From an uncultured Ignavibacteriales bacterium (GTDB taxonomy: Bacteria; Zixibacteria; MSB-5A5; GN15; FEB-12), in assembly GCA_964612145.1 (NCBI GenBank), contig CAZTBP010000013.1, forward strand, positions 1 through 64,000: a stretch of 64,000 bases of DNA, in the 5' to 3' direction. The translations under genes were made by a program, and so were the position numbers. The notes under the pieces are model-generated. The model saw only the letters and a list, made by a program, of their open reading frames with translations, searched no databases and was not told the DNA's origin. Below, in pieces: positions 38,998-64,000 of the stretch. Position 1 is the first letter of the stretch; each line of letters begins with the position of its first letter.

Positions 38998-41900
38998 TTA
39001 CCACGGGCAATCAATCGGAGCCGGCCCCTGTCTAAAGAGGTAATCAACCAGGTATGTCAGGTCAGCCACATCGACCGGAGGTCCACTGGCATTAACATCA
39101 CCTTCCTCAGCACATGGCAGATCGGGGCCCTGGCGGAAAAGATAATCGACCATGTACGTCAGGTCATCCACCTGAACCTTGTCTTCCACATCACCGTTGA
39201 CATTGCCGCGAATTCCTTCACAGCAGCCGTCGCAGGCATCGCCCAAACCATCCCCATCAGTGTCCTCCTGACCCGGGTTGTACACCTCCGGACAGTTGTC
39301 GCATACATCGCCGATACCGTCCGGACCACCATTTTCCGGCAGCTCACTCTCTACCTGATCGGCGTTGGCATCCAACGGACAGTTGTCACACAGATCCCCG
39401 ACACCGTCGGCATCAACGTCTAGCTGATCCGGGTTATTGACCATCGGACAATTATCACAGGCATCGCCGAATTCATCGTTATCGGAATTGGTTTGGTCTG
39501 TATTCGCTGTATTCAGACAGTTGTCGCAAACGTCACCAACGTTGTCACCGTCAGCATCGGCTTGCGTGTCGTTGAATGTAGTCGGGCAGTTGTCTACGTC
39601 GCCACAAACCCCGTCACCATCGATGTCATTATCGGGATCATTGGGACACTGATCGCAGACATCACCGATACCATCACCATCAGCGTCAGCCTGATCGGTG
39701 TTCGCGTCATCCGGACAGTTGTCACAAACATCTCCGATACCGTCAGCATCGACATCCGCCTGGTTGCGGTTCCACTCTTCCGGACAGTTATCGCAGACAT
39801 CACCTACCGTATCGAAATCCTGGTCAGCCTGATCCGCATTGGCATTATCCGGACAATTGTCACAGGCATCACCGGTCCCGTCCCCGTCTATGTCGGACTG
39901 ATCCGTGTTCGCCGTATCCGGACAGTTATCGCAGACATCGCCGATATTATCCGCGTCAACGTCGCTCTGATCGGAGTTCGGATCCGACGCACAGTTGTCG
40001 CATTGGTCGCCCCAGCCGTCGTCATCGAAATCGGACTGGAACTGGTTGGCCACCGTCGGACAATTGTCGCACGCATCGCCGACACCGTCACCATCGACAT
40101 CCGCCTGATCCGTATTCGGCGTGCTCGGACAATTGTCGCAGATATCACCTTTCCCATCATCGTCCGCATCCAGTTGATCCGTGTTGGCTTCGTCCGGACA
40201 GTTATCACAGACATCACCGATTCCGTCGCCGTCCACATCCGACTGGTCGGCATTCGACGTAGTGGGGCAGTTGTCGACATCACCACAGACGCCGTCACCA
40301 TCTATGTCATTATCCGGATCATCCGGGCACTGGTCACATAGATCACCGATTCCGTCAGCGTCAGCGTCTTCCTGAAGCGGATTGGACACGGTCGGACAGT
40401 TGTCACACAAATCGCCAATCCCGTCACTGTCACCATCCGCCTGATCGGCATTAGCCACTGTCGGACAATTGTCGCAAACATCCCCAACCCCGTCGCCGTC
40501 AGCGTCAAGCTGATCACTGTTTGGCTCATTCGGGCAGTTGTCGCACACATCACCAACACTATCGCCGTCCCCATCCAGCTGGTCCGGATTGGCATCGGCC
40601 GGGCAGTTGTCACAGATGTCGCCCACACCGTCAGCGTCACCATCCGCCTGATCCGTATTCGCATCGGTCGGACAGTTATCACAGACATCCCCGATACCGT
40701 CGCTGTCTACATCGGACTGATCGACATTGGCGTCCGTCGGACAGTTATCGCAGTCGTCACCAATACCGTCAGCGTCACCGTCAAGCTGATCCGGATTCGG
40801 ATCACTTGGACAGTTATCACAAAGATCACCGACCGAGTCAGCATCGACATCAGACTGATCGCTGTTGGCATCGTCAGGACAGTTGTCACAGACATCACCA
40901 ACGCCGTCACCATCGACATCCGATTGGTCAGCGTTCGGCGTATCCGGACAGTTATCGACATCACCACAGACTCCGTCGCCATCTATATCATTCTCGGGAT
41001 CATTCGGACACTGGTCACACAGATCACCGATGCCGTCTCCGTCGCTGTCAAGCTGATCCGGATTAGCGACATCGGGACAGTTGTCGCAGAGATCCCCTAT
41101 ACCATCGCCATCCGTATCCAACTGATTCGGATTGAACACTCCCGGACAGTTGTCACAGACATCACCGATACCGTCGTTGTCGGCATCGTTCTGATCCGGG
41201 TTCGGCGTGGTCGGACAGTTATCACACAGATCTCCCACACCGTCACCGTCAGCATCTACCTGATCCGGATTGGCAACCGTCGGGCAATTGTCACAGGCGT
41301 CACCGAGCCCGTCACCATCGACATCCGCCTGATCCGAATTCGGCGTCGTCAGACAGTTATCGCACACATCCCCGACGCCGTCGTTATCAGTATCGAGCTG
41401 ATCGGTATTCGGTGTTGTCGGACAGTTGTCACAGGCGTCGCCAATCCCGTCGCCGTCGGAATCCAGCTGGTCCGGGTTAAACACTGTCGGACAGTTGTCA
41501 CATAGATCTCCAATCCCGTCACCATCAGCATCGGCCTGGTCGGAATTCGGAATTGTCGGACAGTTGTCGCAGAGGTCACCCACTCCGTCACCGTCTGAAT
41601 CAAGCTGGTCCGGATTGGCAACCGTCGGACAATTATCGCAGGCATCACCAAATCCGTCGCCATCGCTATCGGCCTGGTCCGGATTGAACACGGTCGGGCA
41701 GTTGTCAGGCGGGCAGTTCTGGCCCGGTACCGTCGGATCCCCAAACCCGTCGCCGTCCGGGTCGAGACAAAACTGACACTGGTCACCGATGTATTCGGTG
41801 CCGTCCCAGATCGGCTGAAACACGATCTGGCCCGTTGGCGAGTTCGAGTTCATAACGTATTCGGTGCCGTTGGAATATGTCGCCGTGTCGATGATGATCA

Positions 41901-42351
41901 GATCATCAGAATCCCAGCTTGAAAGTGTGAAGTAGTAAGTTGCCCAGTGTTGTCGAGCAGTTAGATTGGAGTCAACCCCGTCGCCCATCAATTGTGAACC
42001 ACCAACCAAAAATCGCTGGTTCGCATTTGTCGTCGCCAGGTCATTGTTCTCGTAGAAAAACGGCCCGATCTCAAACCCGTCGATCAACAGTTGCGTACCA
42101 ACCGCACTGTCCATCTGAAGGTTCGGGTTGTCCCACGTAAACCCGGCCGATCCGCCGCTGATATTCTCGTCGTGGTACATCCACAATTCCACCTCGACCT
42201 TCGCCTGGCCGGTCGAGGCATCGGGACAAAGCGTTGTGACGAGAATCAACGTGTCGGTATTCCCCGGATCGTCGGGATCTTGGGCGTTGACGGTTGCAGC
42301 CAGCAATAACGCACCCATCAGCAGTGCTGCCGGCAAGAGAGTCTTCCTCAT
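38998..42351 (-). CDS. Giant secreted protein (1117 aa) made of about 45 thrombospondin type-3-like calcium-binding repeats, with a C-terminal tandem dockerin-like module
   Basis: Signal peptide [23 protein letters not shown]. Iterated D-x-D-x-D-G-x-G-D-x-C-D-N-C-P-x-x-x-N-x-D-Q units. C-terminus [19 protein letters not shown]...[24 protein letters not shown]. Confidence 0.85.
39320..41740. repeat. Coding tandem-repeat array (about 45-bp TSP3 units with an about 650-bp higher-order repeat containing CDQCPNDP(E/D)[16 protein letters not shown], present 3 times)
   Basis: The 15-aa periodicity is obvious in the translation. The many spurious opposite-strand ORFs across this span are the artefact signature of a high-GC periodic repeat. 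Confidence 0.8.
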
Positions 42352-43019
42352 AGAGCCACCTCCCTGATCGCGTGTGAGGAGATTAGAATGTTAGAAATTT
42401 AAAAACAGGATAACCCGTAAAAAGAGCGTCGCGTGTGCGGGCGCAAAAGATAGGACTCTTTCCACGGCAAATCACCGGATATTGGCCTCCCGGTTACCGA
42501 ATCTATTCAGAGATTTTGTACCGGTTCAGATTTGTTGAATCAGAATGGAAACGTACCCTCAGGCTTCTCTGAACTGGCGGATCTACTAATAATCTAATGT
42601 GGATGTCAAAGTCTGTCAAGACGTATGTCAAGGCGTATTTGCCCCTCGGGGCCACACCTTAACCGCCTGCCTCTAAAAGACCCCGGCGGGAACTTTAGTA
42701 CGTCTCCACCGGTTGTTCAAGCGCCGGGTCAAAGGCTGAGTATCGGATATTCGTCAGGCGTTCACTTCGATCAGAAGATTTACCATTTATCAACCGATAA
42801 ACTATATAGATAGCGAAGTGCCGACGACGTCACCTAAGAAACTTCTCTCCGCGTTTGAACCCCAACGGCCTTGTGAAGATTTGGCAAGCTATTTTGAAAC
42901 GCAGAATTTACAGCAGCCTAACGAATGGTTGGATACTCGGAATCTGGTCGTATATTTTACTTGGTGAGTGTTAACTCGTCTGGATTCTGCGTGGGGATGT
43001 CCGGAGACACAGGTTTGGA

Positions 43020-44465
43020 ATGAACAAGTATCTGTCCGTCAAAGCATTACTGGCTCTTGCGATCGTCACACCGACCCTCGTGGACGGAGCCACCATACGG
43101 GTACCGGCCGACCAGCCGAACATTCAGGCAGCGGTCGACGCCTGTGACGGCGACGATACAGTTCTCATTGCCGACGGCATCTACTCCGGCACCGGCAACC
43201 ACGACGTTATCATTCCCGACACCAACCTGACCATCCGCTCCGAAAACGGCCCCGAATTCACCATCATCGACCTCGCCGGTACCGCCGACCACAAGGGCTT
43301 CATCCTCGGCTCCGGCGCACTTGGAACCAGCCGCAACGTAGTATTCAGCCTCGAAGACCTCACTATTCAAAACGGCGACGGCGTCAACGGCGGTGTCCTC
43401 GAAGCGACCACCTGGCGCCTCAGTATAGATAACTGCCATTTTGAGAATAACCGTGCCGACAACGGCGCCGTACTCTACCTCGACAGTTGCGTGGCCGAAA
43501 TCACCAATTGCCGGTTCAACTCCAATGTCGCCGTCAACACCGGCGGCGCCATCTATGGCCTCGATTCGACCAGCCGCATCTCCGCCACACGATTTGACTT
43601 CAACATTGCCGACCGCGGCGGCGCCCTGGCCAACTACACCGGCATCGACATCGAGAACTGCGTCTTCCTGCAAAATCAGGCCACCTGGGGTGCCGCCATG
43701 TTCTCCCAGCGCGAAAACGCCCATTTCACCCTTACCGGCACCTTCTTTACCCGCAACTCAGGCGCCCCCGCTATCTACATGTGGAAGTCCGCTGCAGCGG
43801 TCGACCACTGCACCTTCTTCGGCAACGACGGCGTCTTTGAACTCAACTCCTCATCGCCCGTCTCCACCAACACCATCTTCGCCGATAACAGCGGAATGAC
43901 CCTCACCTGCAACGACTCCTTCCCCGGCAGCGAAAGCAACCCCGACCTCGACTACTGCATCGTCTCCGACTCCGGCCTGGATTTCCCCGGCTGCCCGGTC
44001 TCTATCATCCAGATGCCGAACAACTACATCGGCGACCCCATGTTCTGCGATACCGCATCTAACGACTTCCGCCTCCAGTCCGGCTCGCCGGCCGAGGGCA
44101 ACGCCTCCGACGGCTCTACTATAGGTGCCGCCCCGGTTGGCTGCCTCCCGACCGATGTCGAGGATTCCGACCCGATTCTCCCGAACGCCTTTACGCTCCA
44201 CCAGAACCATCCCAACCCGTTCAACCTCGAAACCACCATTGTCTTTGACCTCCCCCGAACCTCAGCCGCCCGGCTTGATATCTACAACTCTCTGGGTCAA
44301 CTCGTCCGCACCATAGATCTTGGCCGACATTCGGCCGGAACCCACCGCGTTGAATGGGACGGTACCGCCTCCGACGGATCCGTCGTCGCCAGCGGTCTAT
44401 ACCTCTACCGCCTCATAACGGACAACGAGTCCTCTGATTCAAAGAAGATGCTGTTGTTGAAGTAG
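43020..44465 (+). CDS. Secreted right-handed parallel beta-helix (pectate-lyase fold) protein with a T9SS C-terminal sorting domain
   Basis: Signal peptide MNKYLSVKALLALAIVTPTLVDGA. PbH1-type repeats (NNRADNGAVLYLDSC, NSNVAVNTGGAIYGLDS, NIADRGGALANYTG). CTD FTLHQNHPNPFNLETTIVFDLPRTSAARLDIYNSLGQLVRTI...GLYLYRL. Confidence 0.8.
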   Translation: MNKYLSVKALLALAIVTPTLVDGATIRVPADQPNIQAAVDACDGDDTVLIADGIYSGTGNHDVIIPDTNLTIRSENGPEFTIIDLAGTADHKGFILGSGALGTSRNVVFSLEDLTIQNGDGVNGGVLEATTWRLSIDNCHFENNRADNGAVLYLDSCVAEITNCRFNSNVAVNTGGAIYGLDSTSRISATRFDFNIADRGGALANYTGIDIENCVFLQNQATWGAAMFSQRENAHFTLTGTFFTRNSGAPAIYMWKSAAAVDHCTFFGNDGVFELNSSSPVSTNTIFADNSGMTLTCNDSFPGSESNPDLDYCIVSDSGLDFPGCPVSIIQMPNNYIGDPMFCDTASNDFRLQSGSPAEGNASDGSTIGAAPVGCLPTDVEDSDPILPNAFTLHQNHPNPFNLETTIVFDLPRTSAARLDIYNSLGQLVRTIDLGRHSAGTHRVEWDGTASDGSVVASGLYLYRLITDNESSDSKKMLLLK

Positions 44466-44641
44466 CCCTGTATCCCCGCGATGTACAAAAAAGTGAGCGA
44501 AACCCGAAGCGGTTCTGCCGGCAGGTCGCGCACCCACAATGCGTAAACATATCTTCGCAACTCAACCCCCCCTGTGAAGCCTGACAGAGTCACCCTGAAC
44601 GCAGCCGAAGCGTGACAAGTGTCACCGCTCCCCTCTCTTCC

Positions 44642-46519
44642 CTAACACACCGGCGGCGGGCCACTATTAAACAAGTAATCCACAAGATACGTCAAATCTG
44701 CAACATTCGGCGCACCTCCGGAACCATTCAAATCGGAATTTTCCGACACCGCCGGCGCCGCGCCGCCACGGAACAGGTAGTCTACCAGATACGCCAAATC
44801 CGCAATATCCGGTCCGTCACCGTCATCATCAAAATCCCCGACCCGGCAGAAATCAACCGAACCACCCACCAGCACAGGCTCATACACCCCGGCCTGGGCC
44901 GTAAACGACGGCGAGTAGCCGGCCACACTGGTTATCTCAATCGGGTTCGGCCCCTCGGTCGCATTATACGACACCGTAAAAAACAAACTCATCACCGCCC
45001 CGGTATCCGGCGCCAAAAGAGGCTGAGAACCATCCGCCGAGGTTACAATACTGTATGCCGCCCGCCTGTTGACATTATCCGACACGATCTTCTGGAAAAT
45101 ATCGACATACTCCGTCCGAAGTCCCGCGACCGATCCTGAATCCAGCATCATATCGAACGTCCCCCCATACGAAAACGGAATGATCATACTCCGCAGCGGC
45201 AGCCGATTATTTGCATACACATCAACCCGTACCTGCTTCCCCGGCGTCGCCGCCGCTTCCTCGATATCAACCGTATCCGCATACGCCGCGATATAATCAC
45301 CCGCTACCGTCGAGTACGGTCCGTCCGGCGTCTGAATCGTCACCGCCACATCATACAACCCACCCTCCGTATACGTGTACGTCGGGTTCTGCACCGTTGC
45401 ACTACCACCGTCGCCAAAATCCCATTCCCAACTGGTCGCCGACTTCGGTGTCGATGCGGCAAAATTCACTTCCAGCGGCACCGGACCCAAAACCGTGTCC
45501 GCCGCTATCTTCACATTGAGCTGCCAGCTCGTGAGCACTTCGTTCATCCAGCAATGCATCCGCCCCCACTGCTGCATCGAAAACTGATCCCGGCAACCTC
45601 CGTATCCCATATGGTTCTCCGGATTCGTCGGCCCCCACGTTTCAAACGAACACTGGTCGACCCCGTCCGGCGCACCGCAGCCATAGTTAGTCGGCGTCGG
45701 ATCCGTATCCGAACAGAAATCCCCACGGTCATCAGCCGGCGTCCGGGCATACTCGTAGCACGGCCCGCACGGCGTCACCTCGTCAACCCCGTGATGCGTA
45801 TGCCACAACCCCAGATTATGACCAATCTCATGCGTCAGCGTCCGATCATTGAACGGTGGAAACTGCGTGTTATTCATGACAATTCCGCCCGTCTTACCCA
45901 GCGCGTCAGCACTCCACGGAAACGTCCCGAACGAAAACACCGAACCATCGACATTCACCGACGCCACCCACACATTCAACTGCGAGTCCGGCGCAATGGC
46001 ATAGGCATTCTTCATCTGGTCAAACTCGGCATTCGACGTCAGGTACCGGAACTGCGACGAATTCACGAACCGCATCTCGTATTCAAATTGGATCCGCAAC
46101 GGAAGGTAATGCCCGTTGATATCCTCCACCGCGTCCGCAACATTCTGCTCGGTTACAGCCGGATTACTGCCGTCATCCGCTCGCATCACGTGGAAATAGA
46201 TCTTGAGAATCGTCATCGCATCGCTTGAATCCGGAATCCACCAGTCACGCACACCGGCGATATCGCAATCTCCCAGTAAGTTGCACGCCAACCCGCTCTC
46301 CTTCAACTGCGGATTCTCCATATCCCAGAAGACCTGCGTATAGCACTGGTCATGCTCCGGACCGGTCGCGTCAAGCGCATCGGCTTTAACCAACGTACCG
46401 GCGAGGACTATTAGAAACAATCCGGTAAGAATAGATAGTTGAAAAAAAGCGGGAAAAGTCGACGGTTTGGTGAGAGCCGAAACTTTCGAGGCAGGCTGCG
46501 GCGCACGCTGAGCTTTCAT
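44642..46519 (-). CDS. M43-family (pappalysin/cytophagalysin-like) zinc metalloprotease with a PKD domain and a C-terminal tandem dockerin-like module
   Basis: Zinc site LTHEIGHNLGLWHTHHG (HExxHxxGxxH). PKD segment WEWDFGDGGSATVQNPTYTYTEGGLYDVAVTIQTPDG. C-terminus [19 protein letters not shown]...[21 protein letters not shown]. Confidence 0.8.
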   Translation of the reverse strand: MKAQRAPQPASKVSALTKPSTFPAFFQLSILTGLFLIVLAGTLVKADALDATGPEHDQCYTQVFWDMENPQLKESGLACNLLGDCDIAGVRDWWIPDSSDAMTILKIYFHVMRADDGSNPAVTEQNVADAVEDINGHYLPLRIQFEYEMRFVNSSQFRYLTSNAEFDQMKNAYAIAPDSQLNVWVASVNVDGSVFSFGTFPWSADALGKTGGIVMNNTQFPPFNDRTLTHEIGHNLGLWHTHHGVDEVTPCGPCYEYARTPADDRGDFCSDTDPTPTNYGCGAPDGVDQCSFETWGPTNPENHMGYGGCRDQFSMQQWGRMHCWMNEVLTSWQLNVKIAADTVLGPVPLEVNFAASTPKSATSWEWDFGDGGSATVQNPTYTYTEGGLYDVAVTIQTPDGPYSTVAGDYIAAYADTVDIEEAAATPGKQVRVDVYANNRLPLRSMIIPFSYGGTFDMMLDSGSVAGLRTEYVDIFQKIVSDNVNRRAAYSIVTSADGSQPLLAPDTGAVMSLFFTVSYNATEGPNPIEITSVAGYSPSFTAQAGVYEPVLVGGSVDFCRVGDFDDDGDGPDIADLAYLVDYLFRGGAAPAVSENSDLNGSGGAPNVADLTYLVDYLFNSGPPPVC

Positions 46520-46789
46520 GATAGTCTTTCCTTATGTCTTTCAGGCGGAGGTCAACATAACTAACCGTCAATATAATAAAAAAATCCGAGATTGTGGTTC
46601 AAAATAGGAGATTTTTTCTATTTCTGCATTTTCGCCCCTACTCCGCCCCCCACAACCACTTATCAGACCTTCCGCCACCTCCACCGCCATTGACTTTCCC
46701 CACCCATGTCGTATATTTCGGCTACAAACACCAATCACACCGGAGACACGCAGAGCTGACCAACCACCCTGCGCGACGAGGGGCCGGCC

Positions 46790-57577: not shown

Positions 57578-57735
57578 ACCACAGCCGGCTGTGAAATCTC
57601 CCGGTACAACTGCTCGTGAACGATCAGCGGCAAAAGGCGTTATACCACTAACAAAGGAACACTGTCGGCAGCCCGTCTTTCCACCCAATTGCCGGCCTCC
57701 CCTCAAGCCGATAGAGTAGTTCCAAAGCAAGACGG

Positions 57736-58839
57736 ATGAGGCCTTCCCTGTCTCCTCCGCCCGAACCAGGTATGCCACGAAACACTAGCAGTAATGACGC
57801 TAATGCCTTCCGCCGCCGCACGGTAACGATGGCGTTGGCGGCCTTACTCGTCATTGTAGCCCTCTTTTTCTTGAAGAATGTCGTCGAAACACTGTTGGTA
57901 ATCTTCGCCGGTGTGCTGTTTGGTGTCCTGCTCAACGCGTTTTCACAACGCCTCGCCAGTCGCTTGCATATCAGTCACGGCATCGGACTGGCAATAATCG
58001 TACCCATCGTTCTTGGGCTGCTCGTCGGACTGGGCTGGCTCCTCGGCCCCGGTATCGCCGACCAGGTCGACCAAATGAACCAGCGAATCCCCGAGGCCGT
58101 CGAGCAACTCAAACTCACCTTGAAGAAACATGAATTCGGCCGGGTCCTGGTCGAAAACATGCCCGGAACCAAAGACATCCTCCCGTTTGGTGAAAAACAA
58201 CTCTTCAGCGCCCCCGAGGCCTTTTCCAGCTTCGTCGGCGCCATCCTCAACCTCCTGATCATCCTCTTTATTGGGTTTTACCTGGCTGCGAGCCCGCGTC
58301 ACTACTTCGAAAACTCCCTGAAACTGATCCCCAAAAAGCATCGGGACAGAGTCGGCGAGGTGCTCCACACTATCAACGAAGTCCTCCAGCGCTGGCTGAT
58401 CGGTCGAGTTGCCTCCATGATCGTAGTTGGAATCCTCACTTCAATCGGCCTCTGGCTGGCCGGCGTACCGCTGGCCATTACCCTCGGCCTCATCGCTGCC
58501 GTGCTCAGCTTTGTCCCGTTCATCGGTCCCATGGTGTCTACCATCCCGGCGATCCTGGTTGCTCTCGGCGAAGATCCAATTCTCATCCTCTATGTCTTAA
58601 TCATCTTCGCCATCGTCCAAACGGTGGAAAGCTATATCGTTACCCCCCTTATCCAGAAACGGGCCGTGTCGATCCCCCCCGCCCTCCTTATCTCCTTCCA
58701 AATTCTTATGGGCGCCGTGTTTGGAGCTCTCGGCGTTTTCCTGGCCACCCCCACTGCAGTAATTGTGATTCTGGCAGTGCAGATGTTCTATATTGAGGAC
58801 GTTTTAGGCGACAAAATCAGTGTTCTTGGACACCATTGA
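57736..58839 (+). CDS. AI-2E family (UPF0118/PerM-like) transporter
   Basis: 8 TM. Conserved C-terminal region ILILYVLIIFAIVQTVESYIVTPLIQKRAVSIPPALLISFQILMGAVFGALGVFLATP. Confidence 0.75.
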   Translation: MRPSLSPPPEPGMPRNTSSNDANAFRRRTVTMALAALLVIVALFFLKNVVETLLVIFAGVLFGVLLNAFSQRLASRLHISHGIGLAIIVPIVLGLLVGLGWLLGPGIADQVDQMNQRIPEAVEQLKLTLKKHEFGRVLVENMPGTKDILPFGEKQLFSAPEAFSSFVGAILNLLIILFIGFYLAASPRHYFENSLKLIPKKHRDRVGEVLHTINEVLQRWLIGRVASMIVVGILTSIGLWLAGVPLAITLGLIAAVLSFVPFIGPMVSTIPAILVALGEDPILILYVLIIFAIVQTVESYIVTPLIQKRAVSIPPALLISFQILMGAVFGALGVFLATPTAVIVILAVQMFYIEDVLGDKISVLGHH

Positions 58840-58907
58840 GTATCAAAACCCGGTCCGTCGGTACCCCGATTCGACCAACACTAAGAACACTATCAAGCCC
58901 GATACTT

Positions 58908-58943
58908 AATCACAAACATAGACATGTGACAATGTTTGTGATT
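58908..58943. promoter_or_regulatory. Perfect 12-bp inverted repeat (AATCACAAACAT-N12-ATGTTTGTGATT), a candidate operator. It is followed by the palindrome ATTACGTAAT. A third TCACAAACA copy lies at about 58975.
   Basis: Read directly from the AT-rich intergenic region between the AI-2E transporter gene and the FeS/NrfD/cytochrome operon. Confidence 0.4.
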
Positions 58944-59098
58944 ACGTAATAGGTTAAACATAAACAACTTCCATAGTCACAAACAATCGCGGCACAGACC
59001 TGCTTGTGCTTTTTATCACTAAATTCATCCGATTTGCCTTGACAATTCAGCCTATTGATGGTAAATTTAATCCACAATTGATATTTTTTCGTAGTTTA

Positions 59099-59114
59099 TG
59101 TGAATTTTTTCACA
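59099..59114. promoter_or_regulatory. CRP/FNR-family binding site TGTGA-N6-TCACA. It sits within a perfect 10-bp IR TTTATGTGAA-tttt-TTCACATAAA (59095..59118).
   Basis: Exact match to the CRP-type half-site consensus. It is centred about 57 bp upstream of the ATG at 59164. An upstream TTGACA-N17-TAAATT lies at 59039..59067. Confidence 0.5.
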
Positions 59115-59163
59115 TAAAATGCCGTATTAGTAAATGTAGGAAACGTTAACTGAGGATAAAAAC

Positions 59164-60063
59164 ATGGCTCTGACCAGACGAAACTTCCTCGGACTCGCCG
59201 CAGCCGGCTCTACCGCCCTGCTGACCGGAAGCAACGCTGCCGGCAGTTCCGAAGAGCCGTTCGACTGCCGCGAAAGCTACGCGGTGCTGGTCGATACTGT
59301 CAACTGCATTGGCTGCCGGAAATGCGAAGCCGCCTGTAGCCGGCAGAACAAACTGAACGCCGGGTCGGAATCCTCTTTTGAAGATAAATCAGTCCTCAAC
59401 CAGCATCGCCGCCCCCACGAAGACGCCTATACTGTCGTCAACCGCTTCAGCAGTCCGGACCACCCCGACAAGTCCTGGACCATGAAAGTCCAGTGCATGC
59501 ACTGTAATCAACCGGCCTGCGTCTCAGCCTGTATCGTAGGGGCGCTCACAAAAACCGAAAACGGACCGGTTGTCTACGACGCCTGGAAATGCATCGGCTG
59601 TCGTTACTGCATGATCGCCTGCCCCTTCCAGATCCCAGCCTACCAGTATCACAACGCACTGGATCCGCAGATCCGCAAATGCACATTCTGCGCCGACCGG
59701 CTCGCCGAGGGCCAGACCCCGGCCTGCGTGAGCATCTGCCCCAACGAAGCGATGATATTCGGGCAGCGTGAGCGCCTGATTGCCGCCGCCCGCGCCCGGA
59801 TCAAGACTTTCCCCGACCGCTACGTGGACCATATCTACGGCGAACATGAAATCGGCGGGACCGCCTGGATGTACCTCGCCCCGATCGACTTCGCCAATAC
59901 CGAACTGCCCAAACTGCCGGTGGAACCGATTCCGGAACGGACCGAGAAAATCCAGCACGGCATTTTCAAGTCCTTTGTACCACCGCTGGCCCTCTACGGC
60001 CTGCTGGGCCTGATCATGCACTCTCTGCGTGACAAACCCGAGGGCGAGGAGGTAGAATCATGA
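59164..60063 (+). CDS. TAT-exported 4Fe-4S ferredoxin-type subunit (NrfC/PsrB/HybA-like electron-transfer subunit)
   Basis: Twin-arginine signal MALTRRNFLGLAAAGSTALLTGSNAAG. Multiple CxxCxxCxxxCP clusters (CIGCRKCEAAC, CMHCNQPACVSAC, CIGCRYCMIACP, CTFCADR...CVSICP). Confidence 0.85.
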   Translation: MALTRRNFLGLAAAGSTALLTGSNAAGSSEEPFDCRESYAVLVDTVNCIGCRKCEAACSRQNKLNAGSESSFEDKSVLNQHRRPHEDAYTVVNRFSSPDHPDKSWTMKVQCMHCNQPACVSACIVGALTKTENGPVVYDAWKCIGCRYCMIACPFQIPAYQYHNALDPQIRKCTFCADRLAEGQTPACVSICPNEAMIFGQRERLIAAARARIKTFPDRYVDHIYGEHEIGGTAWMYLAPIDFANTELPKLPVEPIPERTEKIQHGIFKSFVPPLALYGLLGLIMHSLRDKPEGEEVES

Positions 60064-61334
60064 GCAGCACCCATGTCCACGAAATCCCCGTCCCGATTCG
60101 CACCAAGTTCTTCACCACCGGGACCAAAATTATCTTCGGCGTCATGCTCCTGGGTGTCGCCGCCTATATCTACCGGCTGATTGTCGGCCTGGGCGCTGCC
60201 ACCAACCTCAACGATCAGTACCCCTGGGGGATCTGGATCGCTATTGATGTCGCCTCCGGCGTAGCTTTAGCCGCCGGCGGGTTCACAACCGCAGCCCTGG
60301 CTGATATCTTCCATAAAGAACGCTACCACGTCATCACCCGCCCGGCGCTGCTCACCGCCATGCTCGGCTACACCTTCGTCGTGATCGGCCTGCTGGCCGA
60401 CCTCGGCCGCTACTACAATGTCTGGCACCCCATCATGCCGTCGATGTGGCAGGGCAACTCGGTTCTGTTCGAAGTCGGCCTGTGCGTGATGATCTACCTC
60501 AGCGTCCTCTACATCGAATTCCTCCCCATTATCGTCGAGAAATTCAAGGGCCACGTCAACCTGCCCAAGGGCCTTTCATTCCTCAACCGTGTTATTGAGT
60601 CATGGCTCCACACTGCGCATCAGTTCCTCGGCCGGTTCATCTCCATTTTTATCATCGCCGGCGTAGTACTCTCATGCCTCCACCAGTCCTCGCTGGGTAC
60701 CCTGATGGTTATCGCCCCGACCAAACTCCACCCGCTCTGGTACACCCCCATCTCGCCCCTGCTGTTCTTGCTCTCGGCGATCGCCGTTGGATTCCCGATG
60801 GTCATATTTGAGTCGATTCTCGCCTCGAAATCATTCAAGCTCAAACCCGAAACCGGCATCCTCTCATCTATCGCCCGCTATACGCCGGTCATCCTCGGAA
60901 TCTATTTTGCCATCAAGATCGGCGATATCACCCTGCGCGATGCCTGGCCGTACGTCTGGGCGTTCTCGACCGAATCAATCTTCTGGCACATCGAAATGAT
61001 AGCCGGTGTTCTCCTGCCGGTCGTCATCCTCGCCAGCCCGACCCGGCGCAAATCAATCAAGTGGCTCTTCACCGGCGCCTCGCTGGTCGTCTTTGGAGTG
61101 ATCCTCAACCGGATCAACGTCTTCCTGATCGGTTATGAACCACTCTATCCCAACGGCGGCTACTTCCCATCGATTTTCGAGATCGCCGTCACCCTCGGCC
61201 TCGGTGCCGGCCTGATCCTCGTCTACCGCTGGATCGTCATGACCTTCCCGATCATCTCGGTCCCGACAGACGAGTCCAAACACCCGGTCAGAACTAAACC
61301 CATCGGAAAGCCGACCTACACTGGGACCAAATAA
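60060..61334 (+). CDS. NrfD/PsrC-family polytopic membrane quinol-interacting subunit
   Basis: About 10 TM helices. Length 424 aa. The start overlaps the FeS gene stop (ATGA). This is the typical partner of NrfC-like FeS proteins. Confidence 0.75.
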   Translation: MSSTHVHEIPVPIRTKFFTTGTKIIFGVMLLGVAAYIYRLIVGLGAATNLNDQYPWGIWIAIDVASGVALAAGGFTTAALADIFHKERYHVITRPALLTAMLGYTFVVIGLLADLGRYYNVWHPIMPSMWQGNSVLFEVGLCVMIYLSVLYIEFLPIIVEKFKGHVNLPKGLSFLNRVIESWLHTAHQFLGRFISIFIIAGVVLSCLHQSSLGTLMVIAPTKLHPLWYTPISPLLFLLSAIAVGFPMVIFESILASKSFKLKPETGILSSIARYTPVILGIYFAIKIGDITLRDAWPYVWAFSTESIFWHIEMIAGVLLPVVILASPTRRKSIKWLFTGASLVVFGVILNRINVFLIGYEPLYPNGGYFPSIFEIAVTLGLGAGLILVYRWIVMTFPIISVPTDESKHPVRTKPIGKPTYTGTK

Positions 61335-61335
61335 G

Positions 61336-62493
61336 ATGAAATACACAGCATACATATTCACGTTCGGTTTGACACTCGCGTTGAGCATGATTGGCCCGAT
61401 ATCCGGCTCAAGCACCCAAGACGCGATCCAGGAAGCCACCCACCTGGACTGCTCCCAATGCCACGACTGCCAAGAACCAACACCCGAAGACCCCTGCCTG
61501 AAAGCCTGCCCGACCCATTCCATGACGCGGCAGACCGCCAGCCACGGACTCACCGAGGCCCCGGATAGACTGCTGCTTGACAAGTTGGCCGAACAGTACA
61601 AGCCGGTGTCGTTTAACCATAAACTCCACGCCGAGATGGCCGAAATGGGCTCCGACTGCGCCACCTGTCACCACTACAGTCCGCCGGGACAAATCCCGCC
61701 GTGCGCCGAGTGCCACGACAGTGAGACCAACTCAACCAATCTTCGGCAGCCAAGCCTCAAAGGAGCCTATCACCGCCAGTGCCTCTCCTGCCACCGGGAA
61801 TGGAGCCATGACACCAAGTGCGTCGTCTGCCACCTCCCCGCCGACTTAGCGTCTGCCTCCGCCCAGGACTACGACACCACCGACATCATAGGCGTGCCGC
61901 ACCCGGTCATCCAGGAACCGACCAAAAAGGTCTACCGCACTCCCTACGAACAGGCCCCGATCGTCACCTTCTACCATGAAGAACATATCCACCTCTTTGA
62001 TTTAACCTGCGCCAACTGCCATAAGCAGGAGAATTGCAGCTACTGCCACGACCTGCAGAGAGAATCGCGTACGTCCAAAACGCAGGAAGAAATCCACGCC
62101 ATGTGCGACGGCTGCCACGAAACCGACAACTGCGCCAAATGTCATGACACCAAGCAACGTCCCGGCTTCACCCACTCTGCCTCAGCCTGGACCAAAACCG
62201 AGTACCACCAAGACCTCCCCTGCAGAGGCTGCCACCCGACCGGGAAAAAGATCGGGCATATCGACGGCAACTGCGCCTCCTGCCACGCCGGCTGGAATCC
62301 CGACAACTTCAATCACGCCGTGACCGGATTCCAGCTCGATGAATACCACGTCGAGTTCGACTGCGAGTATTGCCATACAAACCTCGCTTTCACCGAAACA
62401 CCCGACTGCTCCAACTGCCACGACGACGAGCGGACTCACGAGGACGCTCCTCCGGGATACGAAATCGAACCGCTGCAGGCTCACTCAAATTAG
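61336..62493 (+). CDS. Periplasmic multihaem cytochrome c with 13 CxxCH motifs
   Basis: Signal peptide MKYTAYIFTFGLTLALSMIGPISG. CxxCH motifs: CSQCH, CATCH, CAECH, CLSCH, CVVCH, CANCH, CSYCH, CDGCH, CAKCH, CRGCH, CASCH, CEYCH, CSNCH. Confidence 0.85.
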   Translation: MKYTAYIFTFGLTLALSMIGPISGSSTQDAIQEATHLDCSQCHDCQEPTPEDPCLKACPTHSMTRQTASHGLTEAPDRLLLDKLAEQYKPVSFNHKLHAEMAEMGSDCATCHHYSPPGQIPPCAECHDSETNSTNLRQPSLKGAYHRQCLSCHREWSHDTKCVVCHLPADLASASAQDYDTTDIIGVPHPVIQEPTKKVYRTPYEQAPIVTFYHEEHIHLFDLTCANCHKQENCSYCHDLQRESRTSKTQEEIHAMCDGCHETDNCAKCHDTKQRPGFTHSASAWTKTEYHQDLPCRGCHPTGKKIGHIDGNCASCHAGWNPDNFNHAVTGFQLDEYHVEFDCEYCHTNLAFTETPDCSNCHDDERTHEDAPPGYEIEPLQAHSN

Positions 62494-62523
62494 CACACGC
62501 GTTTCCTACAACGTGCGCTTGGC

Positions 62524-62560
62524 GGGCCCCTCGAGACTACCCGAGGGGCCCTTCTCTTTT
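62524..62560 (+). terminator. Strong intrinsic terminator after the cytochrome operon
   Basis: GGGCCCCTCG-agactac-CGAGGGGCCC followed by TTCTCTTTT. Confidence 0.8.
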
Positions 62561-62618
62561 CAGGCGTGAACTTCCCGACGCAAATTCCTGTTCCGATTGC
62601 CAAAGGAGGCCGTGCCAG

Positions 62619-63113
62619 ATGAAACGGAAAAAAATCGAACCCGGCTCGGGACAGGAATCAGTGTGGGATTACCCCCGTCCCCCAGCCCTCGAAGACACCG
62701 GCAGGAACATTAGGATCATATTCAACGGCGTCACCATCGCCCGGACCAATCGGGCCAAACGAGTACTCGAGACCAGCCACCCGCCCGTCTATTACATTCC
62801 CCCACAGGATATCGCGTCCAATGTCCTGGAAGCCGTTCCCGGAACCTCCTGGTGCGAATGGAAAGGCAAGGCTCGCTACTTCAATGTTCGCGTCGGCAAC
62901 TCCGTCGCCGAGCGGGCCGCCTGGTCATACCCGTCGCCCAGCGAACGCTTCGCTTTACTGCGCGACTCTATCGCCTTTTATCCGAGCTGCATGGATGCCT
63001 GTTATGTCGACAGCGAACAGGTCCGGGCCCAGGACGGCGATTTCTACGGCGGCTGGATCACCTCGGACATTGTCGGACCGTTCAAAGGTGGCCCGGACAC
63101 CCTCGGCTGGTAA
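62619..63113 (+). CDS. DUF427-domain protein
   Basis: Start at 62619 (aaaggagg RBS) gives MKRKKIEPGSGQESVWDYPRPPALE...YYIPPQDIASNVLEAVPGTSWCEWKGKARYFNV...SIAFYP, which is DUF427-like. The 249-nt upstream ORF-track extension has no support. Confidence 0.55.
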   Translation: MKRKKIEPGSGQESVWDYPRPPALEDTGRNIRIIFNGVTIARTNRAKRVLETSHPPVYYIPPQDIASNVLEAVPGTSWCEWKGKARYFNVRVGNSVAERAAWSYPSPSERFALLRDSIAFYPSCMDACYVDSEQVRAQDGDFYGGWITSDIVGPFKGGPDTLGW

Positions 63114-63190
63114 GATCGTAGCGCCTCGCCATAGGAAAGGCCCGCTCGCGACTGCGAACAGGCCTTTCTCTATTAAATCACGATAGCTCC

Positions 63191-64000
63191 TTACGGACAC
63201 GGTACCGGCGGCGGACCACCCCTGAAGAGATAGTCGACCAGCGCCGTCAGATCTGAGACATTGACCGTCCCATCACCGTTGACGTCCGCTTCCGGCAGAC
63301 ACGGTGGTGTCGGACCGCCTCGGAAGAGGTAATCGACCAGATTTGTAAGATCAGAGACGTTAAGTGTCCCGTCATGATTAGCGTCTCCCCGCAGTACACA
63401 GCAGGAGGCCCGTGGCACATGCACCAAATACCCATACCCGTTCGTTTCACTGCTGTGAGCTTCGGCCGAATCGACCATGCCGTTAGTCGGATCACTGGTA
63501 CCACTATTCGTCGTCACCCAGCGATCCCAGACATCCGGACTCGCATTATCAAACTGGAACCGGAATGGACTGAAAATAGCGTTCGTGCAGGTCGGATCCC
63601 ACCACGAGACATACCAGTCCGTGCCAACCTTATGGACCGCATGTGTCCAGCCGACCGGCTCAACCCAGTTACTATAATTGCCGGCAATACTGTCATGCGT
63701 GCGAACGTGGAAATCACACCGTCCCGTACCACCGCCCGGCGTCACATCATACCAGTACGTCGGCGGATGCGTAGGATTAGTTCCGCCCTGCGGCTCACAT
63801 TCAACCTTATCAGCCGTGTCCGGGCATATCACCAGGGCCGCCTCGATCACCGGGTATACAACTCCGCCGCCCCACGGCGCGTAGTCGGTACCCCGGTTCA
63901 TCCCGAGGAAATTGCCGAGGATATTCGCATTGTACGGGTAATTGATCACCTCCACCGGACCGGTCATACCCGGCAGCGTCATCACCTGGCACTGATACGG
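63191..64000 (-). CDS. Secreted protein with a C-terminal tandem dockerin-like module. The N-terminus may run off the window end.
   Basis: C-terminus GDANHDGTLNVSDLTNLVDYLFRGGPTPPCLPEADVNGDGTVNVSDLTALVDYLFRGGPPPVPCP. The reading frame is open to the window edge. Confidence 0.6.
   Translation of the reverse strand, partial: PYQCQVMTLPGMTGPVEVINYPYNANILGNFLGMNRGTDYAPWGGGVVYPVIEAALVICPDTADKVECEPQGGTNPTHPPTYWYDVTPGGGTGRCDFHVRTHDSIAGNYSNWVEPVGWTHAVHKVGTDWYVSWWDPTCTNAIFSPFRFQFDNASPDVWDRWVTTNSGTSDPTNGMVDSAEAHSSETNGYGYLVHVPRASCCVLRGDANHDGTLNVSDLTNLVDYLFRGGPTPPCLPEADVNGDGTVNVSDLTALVDYLFRGGPPPVPCP

What the first reader, a model, noticed from the sequence alone, without database searches (positions are those of the whole stretch)
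38998..64000. A family of secreted proteins sharing a Cys-flanked tandem dockerin-like C-terminal module, including a multihaem cytochrome
Four otherwise unrelated secreted proteins end with the same about 70-aa module. They are the TSP3 giant, the M43 protease, the at-least-5-haem cytochrome with Ig-like repeats, and the protein at 63191-64000. The module is two EF-hand-like D-x-N-G-D-G-x-x-N-V-[SA]-D-L-T-Y-L-V-D-[YF]-L-F-R-G-G-P segments bracketed by cysteines. It resembles type-I dockerin repeats but has a distinct [13 protein letters not shown] core. The same genome also uses T9SS CTDs (29922..30779, 43020..44465). So this tag probably specifies assembly onto a cohesin-like scaffold, or another surface-anchoring route, rather than export. 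A dockerin-tagged multihaem cytochrome is unusual. It hints at a scaffolded extracellular electron-transfer or redox complex.
Basis: seen in the sequence. Interest (0 to 1): 0.7.

Follow-up and report, generated by a model that had tools for sequence, protein, structure and literature searches.

The report
Dockerin-tagged surface proteins with T9SS cohesin anchor
Four secreted proteins of a probable Zixibacteria genome, one of them a five-haem cytochrome, end in a cysteine-clamped variant of the dockerin "plug", and the same window encodes the matching "socket": a small cohesin protein carrying a type IX secretion signal, which probably pins these proteins to the cell surface.

Summary
Four minus-strand ORFs share only a C-terminal module of about 70 aa, and the motif occurs nowhere else in the window. 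A profile of the module hits genuine Clostridium type-I dockerins in the PDB (E 4e-8). It is nevertheless a divergent subfamily: Pfam's dockerin model passes 1 of 4 window tails and 13 of 61 relatives. Across 121 relatives the cysteines come in even sets (CC…C…C or C…C).

The 285-aa "T9SS CTD" protein at 29922-30779 is signal peptide + cohesin + type-A CTD. Its AlphaFold model matches type-I cohesins (TM about 0.8), and 20 of 21 PDB profile hits are cohesins. It is conserved and syntenic in Zixibacteria. The M43 protease also has a cohesin-like domain just before its dockerin.

The cytochrome core occurs elsewhere with a dockerin (48 of its 120 best homologues), a T9SS CTD (39) or an IPTL-CTERM-like tail, so these ends look interchangeable. 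Cargo is mostly proteases and adhesin-like repeats, with no glycoside hydrolases among the leading families.

Best reading: a non-cellulosomal cohesin-dockerin surface display anchored through T9SS. This is a new variant of a known kind; Cloacimonadota offer a published precedent. A scaffolded electron-transfer complex is not supported.

The parts
38998..42351 (-). Secreted 1117-aa protein made of thrombospondin type-3 (TSP3) calcium-binding repeats, ending in the dockerin module (39001-39225; 4-Cys form CC...C...C)
   Evidence: Pfam TSP_3 E 2e-114 with 19 stretches. The tail matches the other three in BLASTP and the motif scan. Coordinates. The N-terminal domain is not demonstrably a cohesin (hhalign E 0.013, probability 3%).
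44642..46519 (-). Secreted 625-aa M43-type zinc metalloprotease (HEIGHNLGLWH) with a PKD domain, a cohesin-like domain (44936-45289) and the dockerin module (44645-44851; 2-Cys form)
   Evidence: Pfam Peptidase_M43 35 bits and PKD_4 47.6 bits. The cohesin-like domain scores hhalign probability 95%, E 3e-8 against the Coh-CTD family and local HMM E 1e-9. Orthologues with the same cohesin-then-dockerin end occur in L024, L055, L019, L060 and L041.
52997..55771 (-). Secreted 924-aa cytochrome: five-haem core (54092-55708), three He_PIG/Big_9 Ig-like repeats (53222-54091) and the dockerin module (53000-53218; 2-Cys form)
   Evidence: Five CxxCH motifs. Pfam He_PIG, Big_9 and a weak Cytochrome_C7 match. 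P0241 is 100% identical. In the AF2 model the Ig repeats and dockerin have block-mean pLDDT 75-94 (dockerin blocks 75-88) and the dockerin has three helices, 865-877, 884-887 and 897-908. The dockerin part of the family profile hits PDB dockerins.
63191..64000 (-). 3' part of a gene that runs off the window. The passenger is unknown. It ends in the dockerin module (63194-63403; 4-Cys form with two canonical 12-residue loops)
   Evidence: This is the only window tail that passes the Pfam Dockerin_1 cut-off (38 bits on the excised tail, 34.2 on the whole partial ORF, against 22.9). No family was found for the passenger.
29922..30779 (-). Proposed receptor/anchor: a 285-aa protein with a signal peptide, a type-I-like cohesin (about 30216-30716) and a T9SS type-A C-terminal domain (29925-30161)
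   Evidence: The window protein scores below Pfam's Cohesin cut-off (16.5 bits), but about half of its 285-aa orthologues carry PF00963 + PF18962. Of 21 PDB hits of the family profile, 20 are cohesins (best 8.7e-6). The AF2 model has pLDDT 88.9 and its top Foldseek hits are all cohesins, with TM 0.75-0.81 normalised to the target. TIGR04183 scores 39.4 bits against a cut-off of 23. Synteny is conserved.
43020..44465 (+). Context: a beta-helix protein with a T9SS CTD, lying between two dockerin genes. It shows that T9SS cargo and dockerin cargo are interleaved
   Evidence: Pfam Beta_helix, FlgD_ig and Por_Secre_tail. The local CTD HMM gives E 1.6e-25.
56126..62493 (+). Context only, linked by adjacency: an outer-membrane beta-barrel porin (56126-57577), an AI-2E transporter, a TAT-signal 4Fe-4S protein (59164-60063), an NrfD-type membrane subunit (60060-61334) and a 13-haem cytochrome (61336-62493). 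This is a possible quinol-linked electron-transfer module, transcribed divergently from the dockerin cytochrome
   Evidence: Pfam BBP2, Fer4_11, NrfD and Cytochrom_CIII. Thirteen CxxCH motifs.

Best explanation
The window comes from a Zixibacteria-type (FCB-group) bacterium that uses a non-cellulosomal cohesin-dockerin system to place many different secreted proteins on its surface.

Each cargo protein has a Sec signal peptide and ends in a module of about 70 aa. The module is two loop-helix repeats, a divergent type-I dockerin with the core [10 protein letters not shown]-x-GGP in both repeats. It is probably stapled by one or two disulfides between cysteines at its N-flank, linker and C-terminus.

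The receptor is a small, conserved protein with a single type-I-like cohesin followed by a type-A T9SS C-terminal domain. T9SS would export it and attach it to the outer face of the outer membrane, and each copy would hold one dockerin-bearing protein non-covalently. Some cargo proteins, such as the M43 protease, carry a cohesin of their own just before the dockerin. They could act as adaptors that extend the assembly by one tier.

The five-haem cytochrome is one such cargo: a surface-displayed redox protein held away from the anchor on three Ig-like repeats.

Shown here: the dockerin homology, the cohesin fold, the T9SS CTD, the strictly C-terminal position, the lineage distribution, tag swapping on the cytochrome core, and genomic co-occurrence. 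Inferred: actual cohesin-dockerin binding, the disulfides, calcium dependence, surface location, and the route of the cargo across the outer membrane.
For: Dockerin identity. The profile of the four tails hits C. thermocellum dockerins in the PDB: 4fl4_A 4e-8, CelD 1.8e-6, CelS 8e-6, XynY 2e-4. Pfam Dockerin_1 scores 38 bits for one tail and 18 bits for the cytochrome tail. A separate profile from 34 cytochrome homologues again hits dockerins. The AF2 model gives three helices with block-mean pLDDT 75-88.

Position. In 116 of 121 related ORFs with a complete C-terminus, the module lies within 10 residues of the stop.

Cysteine parity. 61 of 121 tails have the 4-Cys pattern and 22 of 121 the 2-Cys pattern.

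Cohesin partner. The closest folds are type-I cohesins, including the single-cohesin anchors OlpA (3ul4_A) and OlpC (4dh2_A).

Co-occurrence. The Coh-CTD gene lies 8 kb from the first dockerin gene in the window. The same arrangement (dockerin-tagged gene, ECF sigma, DUF4097, bactofilin, HtrA, PDZ, Coh-CTD, Ser/Thr kinase) is present in L081, whose cohesin protein is 43% identical. On JGI contig Ga0434945_000005 both genes lie within about 40 kb. All named members of both families are Zixibacteria or unclassified ('bacterium'). A control of 722 kb of T9SS-CTD-centred loci from other metagenomes has no dockerin of this type.

Tag equivalence. Of the 120 best homologues of the cytochrome core (46-72% identity over the aligned part), 48 end in this dockerin, 39 end in a T9SS CTD and about 7 end in an IPTL-CTERM-like tail.

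Cargo. The families include C25, M6, S8, M14 and C1 peptidases, TSP3, FG-GAP and beta-helix proteins.

Precedent. A cohesin scaffoldin with a T9SS CTD plus dockerin-tagged peptidases was inferred for Ca. Stygibacter, Cloacimonadota (PMC8542988).
Against: The window cohesin itself is below Pfam's cut-off (16.5 bits against 24.1). Many loops are 13-14 residues rather than the canonical 12, so calcium binding is uncertain for several repeats. The window has one single-cohesin anchor (plus the cohesin-like domain inside the M43 protease) against four dockerin cargo genes, and related genomes yielded a dozen or more dockerin loci each, so the stoichiometry is unknown. Nothing shows how CTD-less dockerin cargo crosses the outer membrane. 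T9SS machinery genes were not looked for; none of the window genes scanned is one. The Coh-CTD gene sits in an envelope-stress-like cluster (ECF sigma, HtrA), which could point to a different, periplasmic role. Three relatives carry both a dockerin and a T9SS CTD, which does not fit a simple anchor-and-cargo split.
Confidence: 0.6

Rival explanations
1. Piggy-back export. The dockerin is in effect a trans-acting T9SS signal. Cargo and the Coh-CTD carrier meet in the periplasm, where disulfides form and calcium is available, and they bind there. T9SS exports folded proteins, so the complex would cross the outer membrane by means of the carrier's CTD. The cargo would thus be both exported and anchored.
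For: Both partners have Sec signal peptides and must pass through the periplasm (by inspection). The even cysteine pattern implies oxidative folding before or during export. The same cytochrome core uses either a cis T9SS CTD or a dockerin. Peptidase families that are classical cis-CTD cargo in Bacteroidota, such as C25 gingipain-like and M6, are dockerin-tagged here (the Bacteroidota comparison is from general knowledge). The carrier is small, single-domain, conserved and syntenic, as expected of a housekeeping shuttle.
Against: To my knowledge no hitch-hiking through T9SS has been described. Cargo reaches 2191 aa. A type II secretion system or vesicles could do the job, and these were not examined. 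This is an extension of the best explanation, not an alternative to cohesin binding.
Confidence: 0.17
2. Self-contained sorting signal. The module is recognised directly by a secretion or sortase-like machine, as T9SS CTDs and PEP-CTERM or IPTL-CTERM tails are. Its likeness to dockerins is only ancestry, and no cohesin is involved.
For: The module is strictly C-terminal (116/121). It is exchanged with bona fide sorting signals on the same cytochrome core. Most copies fall below Pfam's dockerin threshold.
Against: The module is clearly homologous to cohesin-binding dockerins, and both helices are conserved. A conserved cohesin is encoded in the same genomes and nearby. The tails have no hydrophobic helix plus basic cluster; they end in ...GGPxPxCP. 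They do not meet the GC-type dockerin model NF041540 (14.1 bits against 29).
Confidence: 0.1
3. Extracellular self-assembly without a cell anchor. Dockerins bind the cohesin-like domains carried by other dockerin proteins (cohesin-then-dockerin ends as in the M43 protease), giving chains or a matrix. Alternatively, the module is a calcium-dependent adhesion element for EPS or mineral surfaces.
For: Cohesin placed just before the dockerin recurs in 9 of 122 ORFs, including a 258-aa protein that is only cohesin + dockerin (L054). The cargo is rich in calcium-binding TSP3 and adhesin-like repeats.
Against: This does not explain the conserved Coh-CTD protein. Most cargo (113 of 122) has no cohesin. 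No binding to carbohydrate or mineral is known for dockerins.
Confidence: 0.1

Closest known systems
Single-cohesin cell-surface anchors OlpA (Cthe_3080) and OlpC (Cthe_0452) of Clostridium thermocellum with type-I dockerin enzymes
   Same: One type-I cohesin is fused to a cell-surface anchoring module, and each copy displays one dockerin-bearing enzyme. Their cohesins (3ul4_A, 4dh2_A) are among the sequence and fold hits. The dockerins have two near-identical repeats.
   Different: The anchor here is a T9SS type-A CTD in a probable diderm, not SLH repeats on a Gram-positive wall. The dockerin is cysteine-clamped with a distinct [13 protein letters not shown] helix. The cargo is peptidases, adhesin-like proteins and a cytochrome, not glycoside hydrolases.
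Cellulosome-like system inferred in Ca. Stygibacter (Cloacimonadota): dockerin-tagged GH18, GH57, S8 and C25 enzymes plus a cohesin scaffoldin with a T9SS CTD (Williams et al. 2021, PMC8542988)
   Same: It is an FCB-group bacterium with cohesin(s) on a protein bearing a T9SS CTD, and C-terminal dockerins on secreted peptidases (S8, C25). Both systems are genomic inference only.
   Different: That scaffoldin is 3755 aa with tandem cohesins and CBMs. Here the conserved anchor is 285 aa with one cohesin; Zixibacteria relatives have 2 and unnamed metagenome relatives up to 4. No CBM or GH cargo was seen. There the cargo does not include cytochromes. Cysteine flanks were not described.
Non-cellulosomal cohesin/dockerin modules in Bacteria and Archaea (Peer et al. 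2009, PMC3035643; Archaeoglobus fulgidus cohesin 2xdh; ANME archaea and their sulfate-reducing partners, PMC9012536, PMC10553843)
   Same: Cohesin-dockerin pairs are used outside cellulose degradation. The A. fulgidus cohesin is a fold hit (TM 0.75). In ANME a link between dockerin/cohesin and multihaem-cytochrome adhesion was hypothesised (PMC5244752).
   Different: In the papers I read, ANME dockerins are on ABC-transporter binding proteins and S-layer proteins. None describes a multihaem cytochrome that itself carries a dockerin. Those systems have no T9SS.
T9SS type-A C-terminal domain cargo of Bacteroidota (for example gingipains)
   Same: A C-terminal tag decides surface localisation. 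The same cytochrome core and the same peptidase families occur with a cis CTD.
   Different: The dockerin is not homologous to the CTD beta-sandwich. If it uses T9SS at all, it does so indirectly, through the cohesin carrier.

Membership tests
Type-I dockerin (Pfam PF00404) | Tandem duplication of a segment of about 22 residues, each an EF-hand-like loop (Asp/Asn at positions 1, 3, 5; Asp at 12) followed by a helix | tested here: met
   There are two repeats in all four tails. The Asp at the loop end is invariant in both repeats in 121/121 relatives, and D/N occupies loop positions 1 and 3. However, only three of the eight window loops have the canonical 12-residue length. The rest have 13-14 residues (by inspection of the sequences), and a rough regex count on the relatives likewise finds only about half of the recognisable loops at 12 residues.
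Type-I dockerin (Pfam PF00404) | Significant sequence similarity to experimentally characterised dockerins, or a score above the Pfam gathering cut-off | tested here: met
   The family profile hits 4fl4_A at 4e-8, 1clc_A at 1.8e-6 and 1daq_A at 8e-6. For individual tails the result is mixed: 38 bits (pass), 18 bits (fail) and two with no hit. Among relatives, 13 of 61 match at E<=1e-3.
Type-I dockerin (Pfam PF00404) | Compact three-helix fold with the two calcium sites | tested here: inconclusive
   The AF2 model of the cytochrome gives helices 865-877, 884-887 and 897-908 with block-mean pLDDT 75-88. No 3D comparison of the isolated module was run, and calcium sites cannot be assessed.
Type-I dockerin (Pfam PF00404) | Calcium-dependent, high-affinity binding to a cognate cohesin | not testable with these tools
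   This needs binding assays, or at least AlphaFold-Multimer with access to the interface.
Cohesin (Pfam PF00963), for the 29922-30779 protein | Nine-stranded beta-sandwich (jelly-roll) cohesin fold | tested here: met
   The AF2 model has pLDDT 88.9. The top Foldseek PDB hits are all cohesins: 6kgf_C TM 0.80, 1aoh 0.77, 3ul4_A 0.78, 2xdh 0.75, with E down to 2e-10.
Cohesin (Pfam PF00963), for the 29922-30779 protein | Sequence-profile membership | tested here: met
   The window protein alone is below threshold (16.5 bits against 24.1). About half of its orthologues carry a precomputed PF00963 hit. A 38-sequence profile hits 20 cohesins among 21 PDB matches.
T9SS type-A C-terminal sorting domain (TIGR04183 / PF18962) | C-terminal domain scoring above the curated cut-off | tested here: met
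   TIGR04183 scores 39.4 bits against 23, and PF18962 scores 32.9 against 27, for residues 207-281.
T9SS type-A C-terminal sorting domain (TIGR04183 / PF18962) | T9SS machinery (SprA, PorU/V, GldKLMN) in the same genome | not tested
   None of the window genes scanned is a T9SS component, and the whole genome was not available. The window holds at least two CTD cargo genes (29922-30779 and 43020-44465).
Cellulosome | Multi-cohesin scaffoldin with a carbohydrate-binding module, and glycoside-hydrolase cargo | tested here: not met
   There is no multi-cohesin ORF in the window or in about 1 Mb of related loci. No GH family appears among the 25 leading Pfam families of 61 cargo proteins. Relatives with 2 to about 4 cohesins plus a CTD exist elsewhere (P0410 in Zixibacteria; P0368 unnamed).
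Exosortase-type C-terminal signals (PEP-CTERM, IPTL-CTERM, MYXO-CTERM) | Short motif, then a hydrophobic transmembrane helix, then a basic cluster at the extreme C-terminus | tested here: not met
   The four tails end in ...GGPxPxC(P) with no hydrophobic helix. The TSP3 giant's NCBIfam MtsC hit is driven by its repeats, and it has no MYXO-CTERM. Some cytochrome paralogues do carry IPTL-CTERM-like tails in place of the dockerin.
GC-type dockerin (NCBIfam NF041540) | Score above the curated cut-off | tested here: not met
   The score is 14.1 bits against a cut-off of 29, for the best window tail only.

The most novel reading that the evidence does not exclude
The dockerin is a trans-acting type IX secretion signal. 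Cargo without a CTD binds the 285-aa cohesin-CTD carrier in the periplasm and is carried through the T9SS translocon as a folded complex, then stays displayed on the carrier. This would be the first hitch-hiking route through T9SS, and it would explain why one lineage replaced cis CTDs with dockerins on cytochromes and gingipain-like peptidases.
Probability: 0.17. Interest if true: 0.85.

Novelty: new variant of a known kind. Interest (0 to 1): 0.52.

Why it matters
Cohesin-dockerin pairs are best known as the glue of Gram-positive cellulosomes. Here the same glue appears to be wired to the type IX secretion system of an uncultured FCB-group phylum. It carries proteases, adhesin-like proteins and a multihaem cytochrome.

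Three consequences follow.

1. Annotation. The dockerin subfamily is missed by Pfam in about four of five cases. The conserved cohesin carrier is named only 'T9SS type A sorting domain-containing protein' in public records. The surface proteome of Zixibacteria is therefore systematically under-described.

2. Biology. The dockerin, the T9SS CTD and the IPTL-CTERM-like tail are exchanged on one conserved five-haem core. This argues that the cytochrome works at the cell surface, which bears on the proposed iron or extracellular redox metabolism of Zixibacteria.

3. Mechanism. How CTD-less dockerin cargo crosses the outer membrane is an open question that can be tested, with possible piggy-back export.

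4. Tools. A small disulfide-clamped dockerin with a single-cohesin partner could also be a useful orthogonal pair for surface display in Gram-negative hosts.

Tried and rejected
- TSP3 giant N-terminal domain as a cohesin: hhalign E 0.013, probability 3%, and no Pfam hit. Not supported.
- NCBIfam names for the TSP3 giant (MtsC 662 bits, Omp28-related selenoprotein 434 bits): the scores are inflated by 19 or more TSP3 repeats, and there is no MYXO-CTERM. Rejected as identities. Only the last ~55 positions of the Omp28_seleno model align to the dockerin.
- Identity of the five-haem core: phmmer against PDB found nothing. The profile gave only a 64-residue match to pentahaem cytochrome c552 5ze8_A (4.6e-4). 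NCBIfam ExtKL scored 29.6 bits against a cut-off of 250. The AF2 core has pLDDT below 50 and is unusable, so no fold search was run on it. The family remains unassigned.
- Extending the window to complete the fourth protein: exact-product look-ups of 61336-62493 and 60060-61334 found nothing on record.
- Cohesin-centred metagenome sampling: the cohesin-only alignment had no stretch conserved enough to search with. The full-length alignment returned almost only CTD matches. I used those loci only as a negative control.
- Literature: no paper in the held library combines Zixibacteria with dockerin or cohesin, and none mentions 'GC-type dockerin'.
- Complex modelling of cohesin with dockerin was not possible.

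Full report
**1. The observation**

The region holds four minus-strand ORFs whose products end in the same module:
- a 1117-aa protein of thrombospondin type-3 repeats (38998-42351);
- a 625-aa M43 zinc protease with a PKD domain (44642-46519);
- a cytochrome (52997-55771, 924 aa from the ATG; the listed 951-aa ORF starts at an upstream TTG);
- the 3' part of a gene that leaves the window (63191-64000).

A six-frame scan for the helix motif D[LI]x-x-[LMF]V[DN][YF][LI]F finds eight sites. They are the two repeats of each of the four tails, with none elsewhere in the 64 kb. In an all-against-all BLASTP of the window's ORFs, the four proteins match each other only over the last 50-73 residues, at E 5e-9 to 1e-15. 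Pfam confirms the passengers: TSP_3 (19 stretches), Peptidase_M43 + PKD, and He_PIG/Big_9 Ig-like repeats. The cytochrome has exactly five CxxCH motifs.

**2. What the module is**

A profile of the four tails, searched against all PDB sequences, returns bona fide cellulosomal type-I dockerins: 4fl4_A at 4e-8, CelD 1clc at 1.8e-6, CelS 1daq at 8e-6 and XynY 1ohz_B at 2e-4. An independent profile from 34 homologues of the cytochrome hits dockerins again with its last 60 positions.

In an AlphaFold model of the whole cytochrome, the tail has block-mean pLDDT of 75-88. It forms three helices (865-877, 884-887, 897-908), the arrangement of a type-I dockerin.

The module is nevertheless a divergent subfamily. 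Pfam Dockerin_1 passes only the tail of the partial protein (38 bits on the excised tail). It gives 18 bits, below the cut-off, for the cytochrome, and nothing for the other two. Of 61 related proteins, only 13 match at E<=1e-3. The reason is visible in the sequence. Only the partial protein has two canonical 12-residue loops, and the other loops carry one or two extra residues.

A logo from 121 related tails reads roughly (C)CC-x-x-G-[ND]-[VI]-[DN]-G-D-...-[DN]-[VI]-[AS][21 protein letters not shown][AG]-[DN]-V-[DN]-G-...[23 protein letters not shown]. The cysteines come in even sets: CC…C…C in 61 tails and C…C in 22. This is what one expects of one or two disulfides that staple the ends of the module. 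The disulfides are an inference. The window holds two tails of each kind.

**3. Where it occurs**

A search of the 5.8-billion-protein collection with the profile gave 255 hits. Every named one is from candidate division Zixibacteria, and a few are already called 'dockerin type I repeat-containing protein' by PGAP.

A scan of species-representative genomes confirmed 177 stretches. The best 80 lie in 78 loci, nearly all from Zixibacteria MAGs. The rest come from MAGs labelled 'uncultured Ignavibacteriales' (TPA assemblies) or GN15, plus one Deferrimicrobium and one Actinomycetota-labelled contig. Several genomes contributed a dozen or more loci each.

I built local HMMs for the dockerin, the cohesin and the CTD and scanned every ORF of these loci (about 1 Mb):
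- 122 ORFs carry the dockerin.
- In 116 of the 121 with a complete C-terminus it lies within 10 residues of the stop.
- Passengers range from 77 to 2191 aa.

Pfam on a random 61 of them shows TSP_3 (15), FG-GAP, LVIVD, beta-helix, and many peptidases (M14, S8, trypsin-like, C25, M6, C1). No glycoside hydrolase appears among the 25 leading families.

As a control, 722 kb of T9SS-CTD-centred loci from other metagenomes contain 121 CTD ORFs and no dockerin of this type. The module is therefore lineage-restricted and is not a general feature of T9SS organisms.

**4.

Its N-terminal domain gives a sub-threshold Pfam Cohesin match (16.5 bits, covering 2-110 of 139 model positions).

A homologue search found a large family of proteins of about 285 aa, 38-51% identical. 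The named ones are from Zixibacteria or unclassified bacteria and are annotated only as 'T9SS type A sorting domain-containing protein'. About half carry precomputed Cohesin + Por_Secre_tail hits.

A 38-sequence profile against the PDB returns 21 hits. Twenty are cohesins (best 8.7e-6) and one is a Por CTD.

The AlphaFold model (pLDDT 88.9) has only cohesins as its top Foldseek PDB hits. Normalised to the target, TM is 0.75-0.81 for type-I cohesins. These include C. acetobutylicum CohA2, CipA cohesins, the single-cohesin anchors OlpA and OlpC, and the non-cellulosomal Archaeoglobus cohesin.

The C-terminal 80 residues pass TIGR04183 (39.4 bits against 23). The protein is thus signal peptide + one type-I-like cohesin + type-A T9SS CTD.

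**5. Linkage of the two**

In the window the cohesin gene is 8 kb from the first dockerin gene. Between them lies a conserved block: ECF sigma factor, DUF4097, bactofilin, Toast_rack, HtrA and a PDZ protein. A Ser/Thr kinase and a TPR protein follow on the other side of the cohesin gene.

The same order is found around orthologues in L081 and L082. In L081, the gene at the position of the TSP3 giant also ends in the dockerin (score 91.7). In a third lineage with different synteny, the same JGI contig carries a dockerin gene and the Coh-CTD gene within about 40 kb.

The M43 protease has, immediately before its dockerin, a domain related to the Coh-CTD cohesin (hhalign probability 95%, E 3e-8). 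The cohesin-then-dockerin end recurs in 9 of the 122 ORFs, including a 258-aa protein that is nothing else.

A cohesin-only profile against 1.84 billion representative proteins finds 1247 relatives. Most are the 285-aa type. There are also proteins of about 430 aa with two cohesins + CTD (one named Zixibacteria), one of 719 aa with about four cohesins + CTD, and giant Ig-repeat proteins with cohesins and a CTD. Small T9SS-anchored scaffoldins therefore exist in the group, but none is in this window.

**6. The cytochrome**

Its core of about 560 aa is highly conserved: 49-72% identity to the window protein among the 34 aligned homologues, with more than 150 invariant columns.

Of its 120 best homologues, 48 end in this dockerin and 39 in a T9SS CTD (after fn3 or PKD domains). 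About seven end in an IPTL-CTERM-like signal. The rest are mostly untagged proteins of about 635 aa, and a few carry dockerin-like single-repeat tails. One core with three different surface-localisation devices is the strongest comparative argument here. It suggests that the dockerin serves localisation and that this cytochrome works outside the cell.

What the core does is unknown:
- there is no PDB sequence relative;
- the only leads are a 64-residue match to pentahaem cytochrome c552 and a far sub-threshold ExtKL match;
- the haem region of the model is unusable.

Divergently transcribed next to it are an outer-membrane porin, a TAT 4Fe-4S protein, an NrfD subunit and a 13-haem cytochrome. 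This is a plausible electron supply, but the link rests on adjacency alone.

**7. How it most likely works**

Shown: homology of tag and receptor to dockerin and cohesin, the T9SS CTD on the receptor, the C-terminal position, lineage restriction, co-occurrence, and tag swapping.

Inferred, step by step:
- Cargo and receptor enter the periplasm by Sec.
- The dockerin folds with calcium and disulfides.
- T9SS exports the Coh-CTD protein and fixes it on the cell surface.
- Each anchor holds one dockerin protein.
- Proteins with a cohesin-then-dockerin end add a second tier.

I put this at about 0.6.

The main open step is how CTD-less cargo crosses the outer membrane. Both partners pass through the periplasm and T9SS moves folded proteins. 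Export as a pre-formed complex, with the dockerin acting as a trans-acting T9SS signal, is therefore the most novel reading not excluded (about 0.17).

The rivals are a cohesin-independent sorting signal and anchor-free self-assembly or adhesion, at about 0.1 each.

**8. Comparison with what is known, and novelty**

Functionally, the closest analogues are the single-cohesin anchors OlpA and OlpC of C. thermocellum.

The closest published system is the cohesin scaffoldin with a T9SS CTD, plus dockerin-tagged S8 and C25 peptidases, inferred for Ca. Stygibacter in the Cloacimonadota (PMC8542988).

Non-cellulosomal cohesin-dockerin pairs are widespread (Peer et al. 2009, as cited in PMC9012536). 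In ANME archaea a link to cytochrome adhesion was only hypothesised.

I found no paper on cohesin or dockerin in Zixibacteria, and none describing a multihaem cytochrome that itself bears a dockerin. That search covers the held library only.

The system is not a cellulosome. It has no multi-cohesin scaffoldin with a CBM and no GH cargo.

It is a new variant of a known kind. The new features are the disulfide-clamped dockerin subfamily, the conserved one-cohesin T9SS carrier, the cytochrome cargo and the interchange with cis sorting signals.

Noticed in passing
window 1-12016: A tRNA-Leu(cag) gene (11931-12016, minus strand) lies next to a tyrosine integrase (10709-11821, minus strand). The stretch 1-10.7 kb has lower G+C (0.46-0.49, against 0.52-0.61 in the rest of the window) and the opposite GC skew. 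It encodes an Hsp70-like protein (1907-3502), a VWA protein (3519-4352), a 716-aa protein with a PA-IL-like end, and a PEGA-domain protein. This is probably an integrated island.
   Followed up: partly
window 24539-25731 (minus strand): An encapsulin shell gene (Linocin_M18, 24539-25342) lies next to an encapsulated-ferritin gene (EncFtn, 25393-25731). This is an iron-storage nanocompartment pair, identified from the Pfam table of the identical Logan contig L001.
   Followed up: no
window 56126-62493 (plus strand): This stretch holds an outer-membrane BBP2 porin, an AI-2E transporter, a TAT-signal 4Fe-4S protein, an NrfD membrane subunit and a cytochrome with 13 CxxCH motifs. It looks like a quinol-linked multihaem module, next to the dockerin cytochrome and transcribed divergently from it.
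   Followed up: partly
window 31127-38010 (minus strand); L081, L082: A conserved block flanks the cohesin carrier in at least three genomes: ECF sigma factor, DUF4097, bactofilin, Toast_rack, HtrA-type protease and a PDZ protein, with a Ser/Thr kinase and a TPR protein on the other side. It looks like an envelope-stress or quality-control cluster. Why the cohesin gene sits in it is unexplained.
   Followed up: partly
L003:3151-5316(-), L037:452-3100(+), L068:4307-10879(+): Three relatives carry the dockerin internally. It is followed by a beta-rich domain of about 115 aa and a T9SS CTD. Tag and anchor signal are thus in one protein, which does not fit a simple cargo-and-anchor split.
   Followed up: no
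P0262, P0273, P0286, P0288, P0290, P0291, P0300 (homologues of the window cytochrome): These proteins have the same five-haem core but end in ...IPTLSEWGM + hydrophobic helix + RKR. This is an IPTL-CTERM-like, exosortase-type tail in place of the dockerin or the T9SS CTD.
   Followed up: no
window 38998-42351: The TSP3-repeat protein exceeds the NCBIfam cut-offs for 'MtsC' (662 against 350) and 'Omp28-related selenoprotein' (434 against 200) only because of its many TSP3 repeats. Automatic annotation would probably misname it.
   Followed up: partly
window 16-450 (minus strand): This short ORF near the left edge of the window opens with a signal peptide and an N-terminal stretch 59% identical over 37 aa to the start of the T9SS beta-helix protein at 43020-44465. 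It is probably a paralogue.
   Followed up: no
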